A DNA stretch of 64,000 nucleotides from an uncultured Bdellovibrionales bacterium (GCA_964530135.1 CAZGXN010000001.1:68110-132109), one strand, 5' to 3'; numbered from the stretch's first letter, positions 23,211 through 36,166 are shown. Notes: generated by a model from the sequence alone, not told the origin. Numbers and translations are program-made.

Positions 23211-23246
23211 ACTCGGGTCACCATCGATACTGCGGGCTTGATGCGG
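23211..23246. repeat. Direct repeat copy B, abutting the 3' end of tRNA-Ser
   Basis: See copy A. The last 3 nt overlap the tRNA discriminator region. Confidence 0.6.
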
Positions 23247-23330
23247 AGAGGGAGGGATTCGAACCCTCGAGGGAGATTAATCCCCGCCACGTTAGCAGTG
23301 TGGTGCCTTAAGCCACTCGGCCACCTCTCC
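23244..23330 (-). tRNA. tRNA-Ser (anticodon GCU), 87 nt with a long variable arm; CCA not encoded
   Basis: The reverse complement reads GGAGAGGTGGCCGAGTGG...ACTGCTAA(anticodon loop, GCT)...long variable arm...GGTTCGAATCCCTCCCTCTCCG. The 7-bp acceptor stem GGAGAGG/CCTCTCC has discriminator G. Confidence 0.85.
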
Positions 23331-32886: not shown

Positions 32887-35667
32887 CTACTGTCCGACTT
32901 CCTTCCAGTTGAAGTCACAACTCCGTGTGCCAAAGCAGGTAACTGTACCGCCACAGCCATCAGGGATGCCAAAGCTCGTAGCTGGGCAGAGGACGGCGGC
33001 GGTGGCTGAGGGGCCTGGGTCAGAACAGGTTCCGGTAGGGACACAGAGAACGGTGATTACGATTGGGGTTGAGGGAGAGCCAAGATGGGTATCCGTGGAG
33101 ATGGTGGAGACGCCGATGGAGTTACCGGTTATGAGGCCTTTTTGGGTGGTGTTGTTGACGGTGGCGACACCCGGGTTCGAGCTGGTCCAATTGAGGAGGT
33201 CGGTTACTTCAGTCGCGGTACTGGTATCAGCACAGTTGACGGTGCCGGTGGCGACATAGTAAGCGCGGAGTTGTGTCGTGAAGCCATTGCCGACGGCTGA
33301 GGAAGCGGGGCAGATTTTGAGGTCGGAGGGAGAGGCGCCGGAGACCGTGATCACTCGCGAGGGGCAGTTGGTGGACCATGTACCACTAGAATCTTGGACG
33401 CGGAGATAGACGGTGTGCGACCCTGCGGAGAGCGTGGTGCTAAATGACGCTGAGGTGGAGAGCAGAGTTCCGGTGGTGCAGTTCCCGTCGCGCCATTCGT
33501 AGGCAGTAGCAGGATCGACGCCGGTACTTATTTTGGTGACAGAATTAGAACCTCTATTTGTCACCCAGATAGAGTTTGTTTGTGAATCAAAGACGAGGGT
33601 TCTGGGATCTGCTTCAGTGGGATAAGTGCCCAAAACTGTCCCATTTGCTGCGCTCAACTGAGTGACGGAATCCGAAGCGTTATTTGCTACCCAAATTGAG
33701 TTTGTAGAAGGATCAAAGGTAACACCAAGAGGCTGTGTGCCGACTGTGTAGGTTCCGAGAATTGCCCCCGTTGCTGCACTTAATTTCGCAACATTATTAT
33801 AATTCCCATTTGTCACCCAGATAGAGTTTGTGGATGGGTCAAAGGCAATGTAGAACGGCGAGGAAGGTGAGCCCCCTGAGTATGTTCCCACCTCAGCACC
33901 ATTTGCCGCATTGAATTTAACGACTGCAGAAAAAAGCACGGGAATTGTCATCCACATAGAGTTCGTGGATGAATCAAAAGCAACACCATAGGGTTGACCA
34001 ACAGCAGAATACCCGTAGGTTCCTAGCGAAAACCCATCTGAAGTTCTTAGCTTAGTAATATTGCCGGAATTAGTATTCGTCACCCAGATAGAGTTTGTGA
34101 AAGCATCGAAAGCAACACCCCAGGGCCACAATCCGGTTGAGTAAGTACCAATAACCGCCCCCGTTGCTGCACTAAATTTAGTAACAGTATCCTGATAGGG
34201 ATCTGCTGCCCACATAGAGTTTGTAGTGGGGTCAAAAGCAATATTTGCATGGAAATTGCCAACATTAGTCCCGGTAATACCACCAGTTGTAACACTAAGT
34301 TTGGTGGATTTATTTAAAGAGGACATATCATTCGTCGTCACCCAGATAGAGCCAGTAGAAGGGTCAAAAGCAATACCATAAGGGGCACTACCGGCTGAGT
34401 AATTACCCACAACTGAGGGGCTTCCGGTGAAAGGACTCCCCGCCCCCGCAAAGCTCACGAGGGTACCAACTGGGATGGTAAGTGAAGTGGATGGGTAGGT
34501 GATGTTTGCAGTGATAGTGGGAGCAACAGTATAATTCCCGAAAAATGGGAGGGTTCCATCCGAGGCCCCAGGGGGAGGAGTGACGTATCCAGGTACTGCC
34601 CCCCATATGATTGTGTAGGAGCCGGGGGGTTGGGCGGGATAGGTTGCACTGAGGCCAGTTCCGGTGATTGGTGGGCCACTAGGACCGGTGATGGTCCATG
34701 AGGCGGATGGGTTGTTGGAGGAAACGGTGATGGTGACGGAGGGAGAAATTTTGGTTACGCTGTCGTCACCATAATTTGCCGTCCACATATTTGTGCCGTC
34801 AAAGGCGATATGCTGTGGGTTTATTCCTGTTCCAGCATAAGTGGTCATGGCACCAGTTGGGGTGATTTTGGTTACGCTATTATCAAGAAAGTTTGCCGTC
34901 CACATATTTGTGCCGTCAAAGGAAATATCGAAGGGAAAATTGCCTGTTCCAGTATAAGTGGTCATGACACCAGTTGGGGTGATTTTGGTTACGCTATCTC
35001 CCCAAGGAGTTGTCGTCCACATGTTTGTACCGTCGAAAGCTAATCCATAAGGACCAAGTATTGTTGTTCCAGTATAAGTGGTCATGACACCAGTTGGGGT
35101 GATTTTGGTTACGCTATAACTACCCCAATACGTTATCCACATATTTGTGCCGTCGAAGGCGATACCGTAGGGAAGAGAACCTGTTCCTGGGTAAGTGGTC
35201 ATGACACCAGTTGGGGTGATTTTGGTTACGCTGTTATCATTGGGGTTTGTCGTCCACATATTTATACCGTCAAAAGCGATATTCTGGTTAACACCTGGAC
35301 TGTAGTAAATGGTCATGGCACCAGTGGGAGATATTTTGGTTATTCTATTGCTACCAATTGGACCCCAATGTGTTGCCCACATATTTGTGCCGTCGAAGGC
35401 GATGTCGAGAATCGCGGGAATCGTGTTGTAATTGGTTATAAGACCAATGGGGGATATTTTGTCTGCACCACCATAACCACCAGTCCACATATTTGTGCCG
35501 TCGAAAGCGATAGCCTGAGGACGATCGCCGGTTGAGTAGTAGGTTGTCATGCTTACCGAAGCCGCTGCAAAAGACGGCAGCATCAAAAACAAACTCAAAC
35601 ACCCCACCAAAACAAACACGCTTGGAAGTGTCCGTCTATTAGATATAGATAGGTATTTCCTTATCAT
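32887..35667 (-). CDS. Large secreted/cell-surface protein with two beta-propeller repeat arrays (YVTN/NHL-like), a central Ig-like segment and C-terminal Ig-like/Cys-rich domains
   Basis: Signal anchor. There are about 9 repeats of ...IAFDGTNMWT.N..D.SVTKITPTG.MTTY.GTG... and then about 8 repeats of ...(V/I)AFD.STNS(I/M)W(V/M)TN...V.K... The tail has ...C...C... motifs. Confidence 0.75.
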   Translation of the reverse strand: MIRKYLSISNRRTLPSVFVLVGCLSLFLMLPSFAAASVSMTTYYSTGDRPQAIAFDGTNMWTGGYGGADKISPIGLITNYNTIPAILDIAFDGTNMWATHWGPIGSNRITKISPTGAMTIYYSPGVNQNIAFDGINMWTTNPNDNSVTKITPTGVMTTYPGTGSLPYGIAFDGTNMWITYWGSYSVTKITPTGVMTTYTGTTILGPYGLAFDGTNMWTTTPWGDSVTKITPTGVMTTYTGTGNFPFDISFDGTNMWTANFLDNSVTKITPTGAMTTYAGTGINPQHIAFDGTNMWTANYGDDSVTKISPSVTITVSSNNPSASWTITGPSGPPITGTGLSATYPAQPPGSYTIIWGAVPGYVTPPPGASDGTLPFFGNYTVAPTITANITYPSTSLTIPVGTLVSFAGAGSPFTGSPSVVGNYSAGSAPYGIAFDPSTGSIWVTTNDMSSLNKSTKLSVTTGGITGTNVGNFHANIAFDPTTNSMWAADPYQDTVTKFSAATGAVIGTYSTGLWPWGVAFDAFTNSIWVTNTNSGNITKLRTSDGFSLGTYGYSAVGQPYGVAFDSSTNSMWMTIPVLFSAVVKFNAANGAEVGTYSGGSPSSPFYIAFDPSTNSIWVTNGNYNNVAKLSAATGAILGTYTVGTQPLGVTFDPSTNSIWVANNASDSVTQLSAANGTVLGTYPTEADPRTLVFDSQTNSIWVTNRGSNSVTKISTGVDPATAYEWRDGNCTTGTLLSTSASFSTTLSAGSHTVYLRVQDSSGTWSTNCPSRVITVSGASPSDLKICPASSAVGNGFTTQLRAYYVATGTVNCADTSTATEVTDLLNWTSSNPGVATVNNTTQKGLITGNSIGVSTISTDTHLGSPSTPIVITVLCVPTGTCSDPGPSATAAVLCPATSFGIPDGCGGTVTCFGTRSCDFNWKEVGQ
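34735..35330. repeat. Five or more tandem 114-bp near-identical nucleotide repeats inside the propeller gene (one 38-aa blade-strand unit each)
   Basis: A recurring 45-50-nt identical core ccagtataagtggtcatgacaccagttggggtgattttggttacgct recurs with a 114-bp period. Confidence 0.8.
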
Positions 35668-35668
35668 G

Positions 35669-36166
35669 TTACTTCTTTAAAACACTAATACTCACCTGCG
35701 ACTGAGTGGAAGACGCGGATGTGTCTGCACTCATAGTGATATTGATGGAATACTGATCCTTTGTGCCGTAGAGGGAGGAGAGGGTTTCACTCTCATACTG
35801 GTTGGAGACATTCCAGTTTTGTTGTTTCAGGAACTCCGCATAGAGGGTGTAGTTCTCCTGTATAGTCTTGGTCGACAAAAAAACAAGCGTGAGCTGTTTC
35901 TGTTCAGCGTAGTTTACGCTATAGCTCTGACTGATCTGGGCGCCTGCTTCAAGGGGGATGTCTGTTGGAAAGTCAGGGGCGACCACACTCCCAAATTCTG
36001 TCTTTTCTGGTGTATTAGTGGGAGAGGGATCCAGGGCAATACCCTGTTGTGCACCAGGATCAAGGGCGCGTTGGCGAGAGGTGATGAGCACAGTCGCGAA
36101 TACAAGCACACTCACAGCGAGGAGGCTGAGGATGATCCATTCTCTTTTGTGGGCAGTCCAGGACAT
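35669..36166 (-). CDS. Hypothetical membrane-anchored protein
   Basis: N-terminal TM helix, then a Ser/Thr/Gln-rich domain. The stop is 1 nt from the propeller gene start, so the two are likely co-transcribed. Confidence 0.5.
   Translation of the reverse strand: MSWTAHKREWIILSLLAVSVLVFATVLITSRQRALDPGAQQGIALDPSPTNTPEKTEFGSVVAPDFPTDIPLEAGAQISQSYSVNYAEQKQLTLVFLSTKTIQENYTLYAEFLKQQNWNVSNQYESETLSSLYGTKDQYSINITMSADTSASSTQSQVSISVLKK

What the first reader, a model, noticed from the sequence alone, without database searches (positions are those of the whole stretch)
34735..35330. Near-identical 114-bp tandem repeats inside a 926-aa double beta-propeller surface protein
Seen in sequence: at least five consecutive 114-bp units share a 45-50-nt identical core (ccagtataagtggtcatgacaccagttggggtgattttggttacgct), each encoding one 38-aa blade-like unit (...VTKITPTGVMTTYTGTG...FDGTNMWTT...). 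A second, more diverged array of about 120 bp follows (AFDPSTNSIWVTN...).

Established knowledge: high nucleotide identity between tandem coding repeats indicates recent expansion or ongoing concerted evolution. It also makes the gene prone to RecA-independent slippage that changes repeat number.

Inference: a contingency-type, length-variable adhesin-like surface protein, plausibly mediating attachment (to a host cell if this is an episymbiont). It appears co-transcribed with the downstream membrane-anchored ORF (35669-36166, stop-start 1 nt apart).
Basis: partly seen in the sequence, partly recalled or inferred. Interest (0 to 1): 0.6.

Follow-up and report, generated by a model that had tools for sequence, protein, structure and literature searches.

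The report
Blade-number-variable propeller surface protein
A secreted two-propeller protein of an ultrasmall (Moranbacteria/CPR) bacterium carries short DNA-identical patches in neighbouring propeller blades, and a second metagenome holds the same gene with exactly two blades cleanly deleted at those patches, so the repeat number really does vary in nature.

Summary
The repeats are real but were described too generously. The units are 117-120 bp (39-40 aa), not 114 bp. Only four blades carry the ~47-nt core, and whole blades are 73-78% identical in DNA.

The gene (32887-35667, minus strand) encodes a 926-aa secreted protein. It has a Vgb-lyase-type seven-bladed propeller, a beta-sandwich, a YVTN/NHL-type propeller, PKD-like and Big_2 domains, and a Cys-rich C-terminal tail. 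The organism is a Moranbacteria (CPR) bacterium.

In blades 3-6 the core shares 96% of its codons (31-35% expected). The equally conserved IAFDGTNMW motif shares only 55% (42-43% expected). This points to patchy homogenisation, not a recent whole-blade duplication.

One contig from another sample matches the window over 8.9 kb. Its only difference is a clean in-frame 237-nt (two-blade) deletion whose junction lies in the 41-nt identity shared by blades 3 and 5. The syntenic ortholog in a sister species has six blades.

Length variability is therefore supported. A high-frequency "contingency" switch and adhesin function remain inferences. The membrane-anchored ORF is upstream, not downstream, and its pairing with a large secreted protein is conserved.

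Variable blade number in highly repetitive propellers is already documented, so this is a new member of a known kind.

The parts
32887..35667 (-). Gene for the 926-aa secreted multidomain protein (P0001)
   Evidence: ORF list. The exact protein is in NCBI on one 136-kb contig. Pfam Vgb_lyase scores 81.6 bits against a cut-off of 50, with weaker NHL, Lactonase and Big_2 hits.
35560..35667 (-). N-terminal signal peptide (aa 1-36: MIRKYLSISNRRTLPSVFVLVGCLSLFLMLPSFAAA|S)
   Evidence: Read from the sequence: a basic n-region, a 23-residue hydrophobic stretch and an AXA-like site. The sister-species ortholog has a classical signal peptide ending VEA|AV just before the first propeller strand. No predictor was run. 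ENA gene calls start at M29, which would remove the signal peptide.
34732..35559 (-). Propeller 1: seven Vgb-lyase-type blades (IAFDGTNMW...SVTKITPTGVMTTY). The N-terminal strand 'SMTTYY' completes blade 7 (velcro closure).
   Evidence: Blade map. In the AF2 model aa 38-310 have pLDDT mostly above 90 and form 28 strands, i.e. 7 x 4. Foldseek matches Vgb 2z2n/2qc5 with TM 0.80-0.81 and rmsd 2.7. phmmer matches 2z2n at E=1e-14.
34813..35283 (-). Blades 3-6, the locally repetitive part (periods 117, 120, 117 bp)
   Evidence: Pairwise identity is 73-78% in DNA and 64-72% in protein. TRF and repeat-finder results.
35186..35232 (-). Identical core, copy in blade 3 (encodes SVTKITPTGVMTTY, strands C-D)
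35069..35115 (-). Identical core, copy in blade 4
   Evidence: It shares a 53-nt exact match with blade 5.
34949..34995 (-). Identical core, copy in blade 5
34832..34878 (-). Core copy in blade 6 (2 mismatches, one of them non-synonymous V->A)
34955..35191 (-). The 237 nt (79 aa, two blades) absent from contig L042. The junction can be placed anywhere within the 41-nt identity 35232-35192 / 34995-34955.
   Evidence: L042 equals window 42058-32903 with an identical prefix of 6867 nt and an identical suffix of 2093 nt, overlapping by 41 nt. The protein alignment agrees.
34468..34731 (-). Beta-sandwich domain '...ASWTITGP..ITGTGLSATYPAQPPGSYTIIWGAVPGYVTPPP'
   Evidence: It is shared (38-47% identity) with the large proteins that follow homologs of the 165-aa ORF in other lineages. 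It is 74% identical in the sister ortholog. AF2 confidence is low to medium, 55-71. There is no Pfam hit.
33520..34410 (-). Propeller 2: seven YVTN/NHL/YncE-type blades (AFDPSTNSIWVTN...), period 126-135 bp
   Evidence: Motif map. Pfam NHL and Lactonase, and NCBIfam YncE / PQQ_ABC_repeats below cut-off. PDB 1l0q S-layer YVTN propeller matches at E=2.4e-14. AF2 models six blades confidently (aa 475-714); the first blade (aa 431-474) has low confidence.
33313..33519 (-). PKD-like beta-sandwich (AYEWRDGNCTTGTLL...HTVYLRVQD)
   Evidence: Weak. It aligns to the PKD part of 1l0q in domain 3. The same module follows the propeller in P0014 and L052_595. AF2 confidence is low.
33067..33300 (-). Big_2-like Ig domain
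   Evidence: Pfam Big_2, E=7e-4, 19.9 bits, below the cut-off of 22.8
32890..33066 (-). Cys-rich C-terminal tail ending ...GTRSCDFNWKEVGQ
   Evidence: It recurs at the extreme C-terminus of at least 20 different proteins in Moranbacteria-type MAGs. There are 81 cluster representatives among 1.84 billion proteins, and nearly all matches end within a few residues of the protein's C-terminus. No Pfam or NCBIfam model matches it.
35669..36166 (-). Upstream 165-aa ORF with an N-terminal membrane anchor. Its stop lies 1 nt before the propeller gene's ATG.
   Evidence: It belongs to a family of 92 Patescibacteria proteins. In every context examined it is directly followed by a large secreted protein.

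Best explanation
The gene encodes a secreted, probably cell-surface-associated binding protein of a Moranbacteria (CPR/Patescibacteria) cell. The protein is built from two seven-bladed beta-propellers plus Ig-like domains.

In the N-terminal Vgb-type propeller, the interior blades 3-6 share a 41-53-nt stretch that is identical at the DNA level. This stretch encodes strands C and D. The loops on the conventional ligand-binding (top) face, B-C and D-A, are highly diverged between blades.

The identical patch is both the product and the substrate of intragenic recombination or replication slippage between misaligned blades. That process has three effects:
- It keeps the framework homogenised.
- It creates hybrid blades that recombine the variable loop segments.
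- It changes blade number in whole-blade, in-frame steps.

Shown here: the patchy identity, a natural 7-to-5 blade deletion allele with its breakpoint in the patch, and a 6-blade ortholog.

Inferred: the molecular mechanism (slippage versus RecA-dependent unequal exchange), that the variants fold and function, and that the propeller face binds a ligand on a host cell or on the organism's own envelope.
For: Patchy homogenisation:
- In blades 3-6 the core has 72 of 75 identical-amino-acid pairs with the same codon (96% against 31-35% expected).
- The IAFDGTNMW motif of the same blades has 55% against 42-43% expected.

Family-wide signature:
- Each homologous gene has its own codon pattern shared by its blades.
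- Exact inter-blade words of 37-95 nt occur in homologs.
- Core identity is 0.77 within a protein and 0.45 between proteins.
- The literature reads the same signature, nucleotides shared by all blades of one propeller but different in its homologs, as independent amplification rather than gene conversion (PMC9218822).

Copy-number variation:
- Contig L042 (ERZ27247817) equals the window over 8,919 nt with zero substitutions and one 237-nt in-frame deletion. The junction lies in the 41-nt identity between blades 3 and 5.
- Contig L041, from another sample, has 7 blades and 1 mismatch.
- The syntenic ortholog L039 has 6 blades.
- Across homolog arrays, 78 have 7 blades, 29 have 6, 11 have 5 and 2 have 8.

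Closed 7-blade fold with velcro closure: AF2 pLDDT above 90 and TM 0.81 to Vgb.

Extracellular location:
- Signal peptide.
- S-layer-like YVTN+PKD module.
- Relatives fused to pilin N-termini, PG_binding_1 and collagen domains.

Precedent: a propeller-bearing minor pilin is needed for host binding in Saccharibacteria (PMC11623550).
Against: - The 5-blade allele rests on a single short-read (MEGAHIT k141) contig. No reads were inspected. A PCR or assembly chimera is unlikely, because 41 nt is well below k=141, but it is not excluded.
- No close relatives were found in 5.8 billion proteins or in the JGI metagenome contigs. Population sampling therefore amounts to three assemblies.
- A propeller is a closed fold, and seven blades is the clear mode in the family. 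The 5-blade allele may be a non-functional deletion.
- The AF2 attempt on the 5-blade allele was uninformative, with pLDDT 38.
- No binding partner, expression data or switching rate is available.
- 41-53-nt repeats predict deletion rates far below those of classical simple-sequence contingency loci (general knowledge).
Confidence: 0.6

Rival explanations
1. This is a fixed seven-bladed propeller. On this view the DNA-identical patch is only a remnant of a fairly recent local blade amplification under purifying selection, and the 5-blade contig is an assembly or PCR artefact or a rare dead allele. There is no biologically meaningful length variation.
For: - Seven is the modal blade number in 63% of homolog arrays.
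- AF2 gives a well-closed 7-blade propeller with velcro closure.
- Only one contig shows the deletion.
- Metagenome assemblies of repeats are error-prone, as PMC9218822 also notes.
Against: - Recent whole-blade amplification does not explain why the IAFDGTNMW motif of the same blades has near-background synonymous divergence while the core has almost none.
- The junction lies exactly in one of the three longest exact repeats, and the rest of the 8.9 kb is identical.
- A 41-nt repeat cannot collapse a k=141 graph (inference).
- The syntenic ortholog independently has 6 blades.
Confidence: 0.2
2. The variation is real but incidental. Repeat-mediated deletions are a mutational hazard of a consensus-like propeller. 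The 5-blade allele is a loss-of-function variant drifting, or being purged, in the population. It is not an adaptive switch.
For: - Disrupted and odd-numbered highly repetitive propellers are common and are interpreted as decay (PMC9218822).
- There is no evidence that the change is reversible.
- The AF2 model of the 5-blade allele was unfolded, although that run used a single sequence and is uninformative.
Against: - The deletion is in frame and leaves all other domains intact.
- Five- and six-blade arrays occur in full-length homologs with intact flanks, for example P0024 against P0011.
- The 5-blade path was the one assembled in its sample, which suggests it is not rare there (inference).
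- WD40 blade fragments with a non-native number of blades can fold by oligomerising (PMC6805158).
Confidence: 0.35
3. The N-terminal propeller is an enzyme, a Vgb-like streptogramin or depsipeptide lyase or a lactonase, rather than a binding module.
For: - The Pfam Vgb_lyase hit is above the gathering threshold.
- The fold matches Vgb with TM 0.81.
- JGI annotates some relatives as 'streptogramin lyase'.
Against: - The alignment to Vgb is at blade level and slides between registers.
- The positions that align with Vgb His228 and His270 (the x in P-x-G-I) are Y, Y, F or Q in the window's blades. There is a single His (aa 286), and no His/Glu cluster was seen at the loop positions compared. The catalytic residue numbers are recalled from my own knowledge of the Vgb literature, not checked here.
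- The blades are consensus-like with variable top loops.
- The module is fused to pilins, collagen, PG-binding and Ig domains in relatives, which is typical of binding modules.
Confidence: 0.07
4. The blades are diversified by a diversity-generating retroelement or another targeted mutagenesis system.
For: CPR genomes often carry DGRs (general knowledge). Variation is concentrated in the loops.
Against: - No reverse-transcriptase gene lies within roughly 9-10 kb on either side, according to the Pfam annotation of the identical contigs and the window ORF map.
- Differences between blades include indels and whole-loop replacements rather than adenine-specific substitutions.
- The observed population variant is a repeat-mediated deletion.
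Confidence: 0.02

Closest known systems
Highly repetitive beta-propellers (Chaudhuri/Lupas; Pereira & Lupas 2022, PMC9218822)
   Same: - Consecutive blades exceed 60% identity.
- Nucleotide positions are shared by all blades of one gene but differ between homologs.
- Blade number varies among very close relatives. The paper reports VCBS propellers with 3, 4, 6 and 9 blades, and paralogs with 6 versus 9 blades that are otherwise 100% identical.
- Blades 3-6 here fit their 'locally repetitive' class.
   Different: - The Vgb and NHL families and Patescibacteria are not mentioned in that paper.
- Here the identity is confined to a 41-53-nt patch (strands C-D) rather than whole blades.
- The variant is an allele of the same locus in another environmental sample, with the recombination junction resolved.
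Virginiamycin B lyase Vgb (PDB 2z2n, 2qc5; Pfam PF24684)
   Same: A seven-bladed propeller of about 40-aa blades with the pattern 'hydrophobic-W-(F/T)T-x-N-x-(I/V)-x-(K/R)-IT-x-G-x-x-x-(E/T)Y'. The Pfam score is above threshold, and Foldseek gives TM 0.81 and rmsd 2.7.
   Different: - Vgb is a cytoplasmic single-domain enzyme with differentiated blades and a His/Glu metal site (the cytoplasmic location is my own knowledge).
- Here the blades are consensus-like.
- The aligned catalytic positions are not conserved.
- The domain is part of a secreted multidomain protein.
Archaeal S-layer protein with tandem YVTN beta-propeller and PKD domains (Methanosarcina mazei, PDB 1l0q)
   Same: Propeller 2 and the following beta-sandwich align to it at E=2.4e-14, with the same order of propeller then PKD-like domain. 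Both have an extracellular, surface context.
   Different: The organism is bacterial (CPR). The protein has an additional Vgb-type propeller, Big_2 and a Cys-rich tail. An S-layer role was not tested.
Tandem-repeat surface proteins with repeat-number variation (e.g. group B Streptococcus alpha C protein, Bap/Esp family; recalled from general knowledge)
   Same: In-frame gain or loss of whole repeats by recombination between DNA-identical tandem repeats in a surface protein, giving size variants within a population.
   Different: Those repeats form open, extended stalks where any number is tolerated, and the repeats are fully identical over 200 nt or more. Here the units are blades of a closed toroid, the identity is only 41-53 nt, and the rate is expected to be lower.
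PilX2 of Saccharibacteria TM7x (propeller-bearing minor pilin needed for host binding; PMC11623550)
   Same: A CPR extracellular protein with a heptabladed propeller implicated in episymbiont-host attachment. Some relatives of the window's propeller are fused to type IV pilin N-termini (PF07963 in P0010, P0036, P0086).
   Different: PilX2 has an RCC1-type propeller and is a pilin. The window protein has a Sec-type signal peptide, no pilin N-terminus and a different propeller family.

Membership tests
Vgb_lyase family (Pfam PF24684) / Vgb fold | Sequence match above the Pfam gathering threshold | tested here: met
   81.6 bits against a cut-off of 50, aa 90-315
Vgb_lyase family (Pfam PF24684) / Vgb fold | Seven-bladed closed propeller | tested here: met
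   Seven FDG motifs. AF2 gives 28 strands with pLDDT above 90. Foldseek matches 2z2n with TMt 0.81 and rmsd 2.7.
Vgb_lyase family (Pfam PF24684) / Vgb fold | Catalytic His/Glu metal-binding residues of the lyase (His228, Glu268, His270, Glu284 in S. aureus Vgb; numbering recalled from the literature) | tested here: not met
   In the HMMER alignment the two His positions align to Tyr. The equivalent loop position in the seven blades is Q, L/D, Q/N, Y, Y, F and Q/H. The register is ambiguous, so this is not a structural superposition.
Highly repetitive beta-propellers (Pereira & Lupas 2022) | [quoted passage not shown] | tested here: met
   Blades 3-6 are 64-72% identical in protein. Blades 1, 2 and 7 are lower, at 43-59% against every other blade, so the propeller is 'locally repetitive'.
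Highly repetitive beta-propellers (Pereira & Lupas 2022) | Nucleotide positions shared by the blades of one propeller but different in homologous propellers | tested here: met
   Codon tables for the window gene and four homologous genes
Contingency (phase- or size-variable) surface-protein locus | DNA-identical repeats able to mediate in-frame copy-number change | tested here: met
   Exact repeats of 41, 41 and 53 nt at in-frame spacings of 117, 237 and 120 nt
Contingency (phase- or size-variable) surface-protein locus | Repeat-number heterogeneity within a natural population | tested here: inconclusive
   One 5-blade contig against two 7-blade assemblies, otherwise identical. No read-level data.
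Contingency (phase- or size-variable) surface-protein locus | High-frequency, reversible switching with a phenotypic consequence | not testable with these tools
   This needs cultures, or deep long-read population data and functional assays.
YVTN/NHL/YncE-type propeller (propeller 2) | Family-level sequence match | tested here: inconclusive
   Pfam NHL scores 35.5 bits against a cut-off of 20, and Lactonase 29.7 against 21.7. NCBIfam YncE and PQQ_ABC_repeats fall far below their cut-offs. PDB 1l0q matches at E=2.4e-14.
YVTN/NHL/YncE-type propeller (propeller 2) | Seven blades | tested here: inconclusive
   Seven motifs are present, but AF2 models only six blades confidently. Blade aa 431-474 has pLDDT in the 30s.

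The most novel reading that the evidence does not exclude
The DNA-identical strand C-D patch could be a built-in recombination joint. It would let an episymbiotic CPR bacterium shuffle the variable top-face loop cassettes of its surface propeller and change blade number (5, 6 or 7) at rates far above point mutation. Together with the conserved ~160-aa membrane-anchored partner and the lineage-specific CDFNWKEV C-terminal tail, this would form a previously undescribed variable host- or ligand-recognition system. It would amount to a contingency locus built into a closed protein fold.
Probability: 0.15. Interest if true: 0.8.

Novelty: new member of a known kind. Interest (0 to 1): 0.55.

Why it matters
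How ultrasmall CPR bacteria recognise and attach to partners is largely unknown. Large variable surface proteins are the obvious candidates.

This locus gives a concrete, sequence-resolved case in which a closed beta-propeller in such a protein changes blade number between otherwise identical genomes. The breakpoint lies in a short homogenised DNA patch. That links the 'continuous amplification' model of propeller evolution to a population-level event.

The locus also offers testable material: 5-, 6- and 7-blade natural variants of one domain.

Finally, it flags two uncharacterised elements that travel with such proteins. One is a ~160-aa membrane-anchored partner. The other is a strictly C-terminal Cys-rich 'CDFNWKEV' tail.

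Tried and rejected
- Exact look-up of the 926-aa protein among encoding contigs: not on record. The locus was reached instead through the neighbouring 165-aa ORF.
- DNA scan of metagenome contigs with the 25-nt core: 0 hits.
- Protein-pattern scans of genome and metagenome contigs: these found only the C-terminal tail family and no close relative of the propellers.
- Word-index search with the 56-aa tail: no candidates, so one search was wasted.
- AF2 of the 5-blade allele as a single sequence: pLDDT 38, uninformative.
- AF2 of the full protein: the C-terminal 200 aa and aa 361-471 are unmodelled, because the alignment does not cover them.
- Nearest-neighbour test of blade cores across 120 homologs: inconclusive (own 50, other 94, tie 65), because the family consensus is so strong.
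- Promoter and terminator scan: no more sites than in shuffled sequence. There is one promoter-like site upstream of the 165-aa ORF and no minus-strand terminator-like site anywhere in the scanned region, so none between the two genes.
- Rfam: only a distant tRNA.
- DGR explanation: rejected, with no RT within roughly 9-10 kb.
- Lipoprotein reading of 'LVGC' in the signal peptide: considered unlikely, because the ortholog has no Cys there.
- The antisense ORF 34810-35043 (+) is just the reverse reading of the repeats.
Full report
**1. The observation**

The region lies inside one long ORF on the minus strand, 32887-35667, 926 aa.

- Tandem Repeats Finder reports an array at 34748-35281 with period 117, 4.5 copies and 76% matches.
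It does not occur in 100 shuffles.
- Mapping the protein motif gives seven 'IAFDGTNMW' units, with FD at aa 55, 91, 132, 171, 211, 250 and 289. It also gives seven 'AFDPSTNSIW' units, with FD at aa 434-693.
- The periods are 36, 41, 39, 40, 39 and 39 aa. The repetitive part therefore has units of 117-120 bp, not 114 bp.
- The units are not near-identical. Blades 3-6 are 73-78% identical in DNA and 64-72% in protein, and blades 1, 2 and 7 are lower.
- Exact identity is confined to a patch of 41-53 nt: 53 nt for blades 4/5 and 41 nt for blades 3/4 and 3/5. All other pairs share 31 nt or less.
- The second array has a period of 126-135 bp.

**2. What the protein is**

- Pfam places aa 90-315 in the Vgb_lyase family (81.6 bits, cut-off 50). 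NHL, Lactonase and a sub-threshold Big_2 hit lie further on.
- An AlphaFold2 model built with 50 aligned homologs gives pLDDT mostly above 90 for aa 38-310. This segment has 28 strands, i.e. seven four-stranded blades.
- The N-terminal strand (aa 38-44, 'SMTTYY') supplies the missing fourth strand of blade 7. This is the classical velcro closure.
- Foldseek superposes this domain on virginiamycin B lyase (2z2n, 2qc5) with TM 0.80-0.81 and rmsd 2.7 Å. The best overall hit is 2ymu, the 'highly repetitive propeller'.
- The second propeller (aa ~420-716) is modelled confidently for six blades. Its first blade has low confidence.
- In sequence the second propeller is closest to the YVTN propeller plus PKD domain of a Methanosarcina S-layer protein (1l0q, E=2.4e-14). 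It also matches designed NHL-type 'Pizza' propellers and YncE.
- Between the propellers lies a beta-sandwich ('ASWTITGP...PGSYTIIWGAVPGY').
- After propeller 2 come a PKD-like module, a Big_2-like module and a Cys-rich tail ending ...CDFNWKEVGQ.
- The N-terminus has a basic stretch, 23 hydrophobic residues and an Ala-rich cleavage-type site. The sister-species ortholog has a textbook signal peptide ending just before the velcro strand.
- EF-Tu and L2 of the window fall in 90% clusters named Candidatus Moranbacteria/Moraniibacteriota. The window also carries the ribosomal protein operon. The organism is therefore a CPR/Patescibacteria bacterium.

**3. Family context**

- The Vgb-type blade 'IAFDGTNMWTAN..NSVTKI.PTG.MTTY.GTG..P.G' is strikingly conserved. 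It occurs in at least 524 proteins among the 8,000 candidates that were scored. Those that carry an organism name are mostly Patescibacteria, and their architectures are very different.
- Fusion partners include type IV pilin N-termini, PG_binding_1, Big_12, collagen, cadherin-like and CARDB domains.
- The exact protein is known from one NCBI contig. The next best hit is only 41% identical.
- An HMM-based blade count gives 7 blades in 78 of 124 arrays, 6 in 29, 5 in 11 and 8 in 2.
- P0011 (7 blades) and P0024 (5 blades) share the same N- and C-terminal flanks of the propeller.

**4. Nature of the DNA identity**

- In blades 3-6 the 14-codon core SVTKITPTG(V/A)MTTY uses the same codon in 72 of 75 comparisons of identical residues (96%). 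From the window's or the gene's own codon usage, 31-35% is expected.
- The equally invariant IAFDGTNMW motif of the same four blades reaches only 55% (expected 42-43%). That is no better than the diverged second propeller, at 65% against 38-39% expected.
- A recent duplication of whole blades would have left both motifs identical. The mosaic instead points to short-tract homogenisation confined to the longest uninterrupted conserved stretch. This is inference.
- The same phenomenon is family-wide. Each of four homologous genes fetched with their DNA has its own position-specific codon pattern shared by its blades. Exact inter-blade words of 37-95 nt occur in them.
- Pereira & Lupas use the same kind of signature, read as independent amplification, for highly repetitive propellers (PMC9218822).
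- The segments that differ between blades are the B-C loop (e.g. NPNDN / YWGSY / TPWGD / NFLDN) and the D-A loop (PGTGSLPY / TGTTILGPY / TGTGNFPF / AGTGINPQ).
- The A-B turn (DGTN) and the C-D turn (TPTG) are invariant.
- By the usual propeller convention the B-C and D-A loops form the 'top' face, which is the ligand-binding face. I could not measure this on coordinates.

**5. Repeat-number variation**

The identical 165-aa neighbour led to two ENA contigs of the same locus from other samples.

- L041 (ERZ27247837) equals window 42268-32903 with one mismatch and has seven blades.
- L042 (ERZ27247817) equals window 42058-32903 with no substitution at all, but it lacks 237 nt.
- In L042 the identical prefix (6867 nt) and the identical suffix (2093 nt) overlap by 41 nt. 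That overlap is exactly the stretch shared by the blade-3 and blade-5 cores, 35232-35192 and 34995-34955.
- The L042 product is in frame. It is 100% identical elsewhere and has five blades. One is a hybrid of blade 3 (strands A-B and the B-C loop) and blade 5 (D-A loop).
- This is the signature of recombination or slippage between direct repeats.
- Collapse in a k=141 de Bruijn graph by a 41-nt repeat is not expected (inference). However, no reads were examined, so an artefact cannot be fully excluded.
- A sister species was identified whose 165-aa ORF is 82% identical. It has the syntenic ortholog with the same architecture but six blades in propeller 1. Identity is 63% in propeller 1 and 74% in the sandwich domain.
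- A third sample (L046, ERZ27247828) is identical to the window from about 33530 down to 30784. It carries 40 mismatches in the ~110 nt that encode the last blade of propeller 2, mostly at loop positions. This hints at a second, divergent propeller allele.
- Zero substitutions in 8.7 kb alongside one blade-number change suggests that this rearrangement is much more frequent than point mutation. This rests on a single event and is only an order-of-magnitude inference.

**6. The partner ORF**

- The 165-aa ORF (35669-36166) has an N-terminal membrane anchor. It is on the same strand and upstream, and its stop lies 1 nt before the propeller gene's ATG.
- It belongs to a family of 92 Patescibacteria proteins.
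- In the five species-level contexts examined it is followed by a large secreted protein, with spacing from a 1-nt overlap to a 13-nt gap.
- The surrounding genes differ between contexts, and so does the large protein's main domain: a Vgb-type propeller (twice), a faint PD40 Pfam hit, an FG-GAP propeller plus CARDB, and CARDB.
- All these large proteins share the 'SSWTITGP...PGTYTITWG.V.GY' sandwich domain.
- Co-transcription and functional coupling are thus plausible. The function of the partner is unknown.

**7. Mechanism and rivals**

My best reading (confidence 0.6) has the following parts.

- The protein is an extracellular binding protein.
- Its N-terminal propeller is kept partly homogenised by intragenic recombination or slippage at the strand C-D patch.
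- The same process generates hybrid blades and whole-blade copy-number variants (7, 6, 5).

Shown here are the patchy identity, the junction-resolved deletion allele and the 6-blade ortholog. Inferred are the molecular pathway, the foldability of the variants and the binding role.

- WD40 blade fragments with non-native blade numbers can still form propellers by oligomerisation (PMC6805158). A 5-blade product is therefore not necessarily dead.
- My AF2 run on the 5-blade product was uninformative.
- A propeller-bearing minor pilin is required for host binding in Saccharibacteria (PMC11623550). This is an analogy only.

The rivals are:

- an artefactual or meaningless deletion on a fixed seven-blade fold (0.2);
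- real but merely deleterious instability (0.35, overlapping with the main reading except on adaptiveness);
- an enzymatic Vgb-like function (0.07), where the aligned catalytic positions are not conserved;
- a DGR (0.02), with no RT within roughly 9-10 kb.

**8. Comparison and novelty**

- Variable blade numbers among near-identical, highly repetitive propellers are documented. One example is a pair of paralogs with 6 and 9 blades that are otherwise 100% identical (PMC9218822).
- Repeat-number variation in surface proteins is classical.
- This case adds a different propeller family (Vgb type), a CPR host and a patch-restricted identity. It also adds an allele pair from environmental samples with the breakpoint resolved.
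- I therefore rate it as a new member of a known kind, of moderate interest.
Length variability is supported, while a high-frequency adaptive switch and adhesin function remain unproven.

Noticed in passing
window 32890-33066 (-); loci L005-L038: The Cys-rich tail 'C.P...C......C....F.I.DGCG...C.GTR.CDFNWKEV(GQ|AP)' sits at the extreme C-terminus of many otherwise unrelated secreted proteins. These come from Moranbacteria-type MAGs, including TPA MAGs labelled 'Bdellovibrionales', and from groundwater metagenomes. There are 81 cluster representatives in 1.84 billion proteins, and nearly all matches end within a few residues of the protein's C-terminus. No Pfam or NCBIfam model matches it. It may be a lineage-specific sorting or anchoring domain.
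   Followed up: partly
window 35669-36166 (-); L039, L048-L053: A two-gene cassette is conserved across different genomic neighbourhoods. It consists of a ~160-aa membrane-anchored protein (92 homologs, weak PF27226) followed directly by a large secreted protein. The large protein's main domain varies: a Vgb-type propeller, a faint PD40 hit, FG-GAP, or CARDB. All of them share the 'SSWTITGP...PGTYTITWG.V.GY' beta-sandwich domain.
   Followed up: partly
window ~33530-33641 (-); L046:1-110: Contig L046 (ERZ27247828) is 100% identical to the window from about 33530 to 30784. Its first ~110 nt, which encode the last blade of propeller 2, carry 40 mismatches (17 non-synonymous and 6 synonymous codon differences), mostly in loop positions. 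This is either a divergent or recombinant propeller-2 allele, or a contig-end artefact.
   Followed up: partly
window 32903-33043: Assemblies break at the same place. L041 and L042 both end at 32903. The downstream contigs of the same samples start at 33043 (a 141-nt overlap), and the Logan contigs start at 32932. This suggests a graph branch inside the tail-coding region, due either to another copy of the tail DNA elsewhere in the genome or to strain variation.
   Followed up: no
window 35581-35667 (-): Gene calls on the ENA contigs start the propeller gene at Met29 (MLPSFAAAS...), which would remove the signal peptide. The NCBI protein and the ORF start at Met1, 1 nt after the upstream stop.
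   Followed up: no
P0011 and P0024 (loci L003, L002): Two homologs end in the same propeller module with the same flanks ('GPTN.PLFRWLP...' and '...SVTKILVN'), but one has 7 blades and the other 5. This may be another natural blade-number difference, or possibly an assembly collapse.
   Followed up: partly
L039 (ERZ27247837 k141_2188592): The 145-kb contig of the sister species ends 1335 nt into its propeller gene, so this gene again coincides with an assembly break.
   Followed up: no
L048/L049:3990-4676: A LAGLIDADG homing-endonuclease-like ORF lies about 320 nt upstream of the cassette in another Patescibacteria genome.
   Followed up: no
window 23244-23330 (-): This single tRNA is the only Rfam match in the window.
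   Followed up: no
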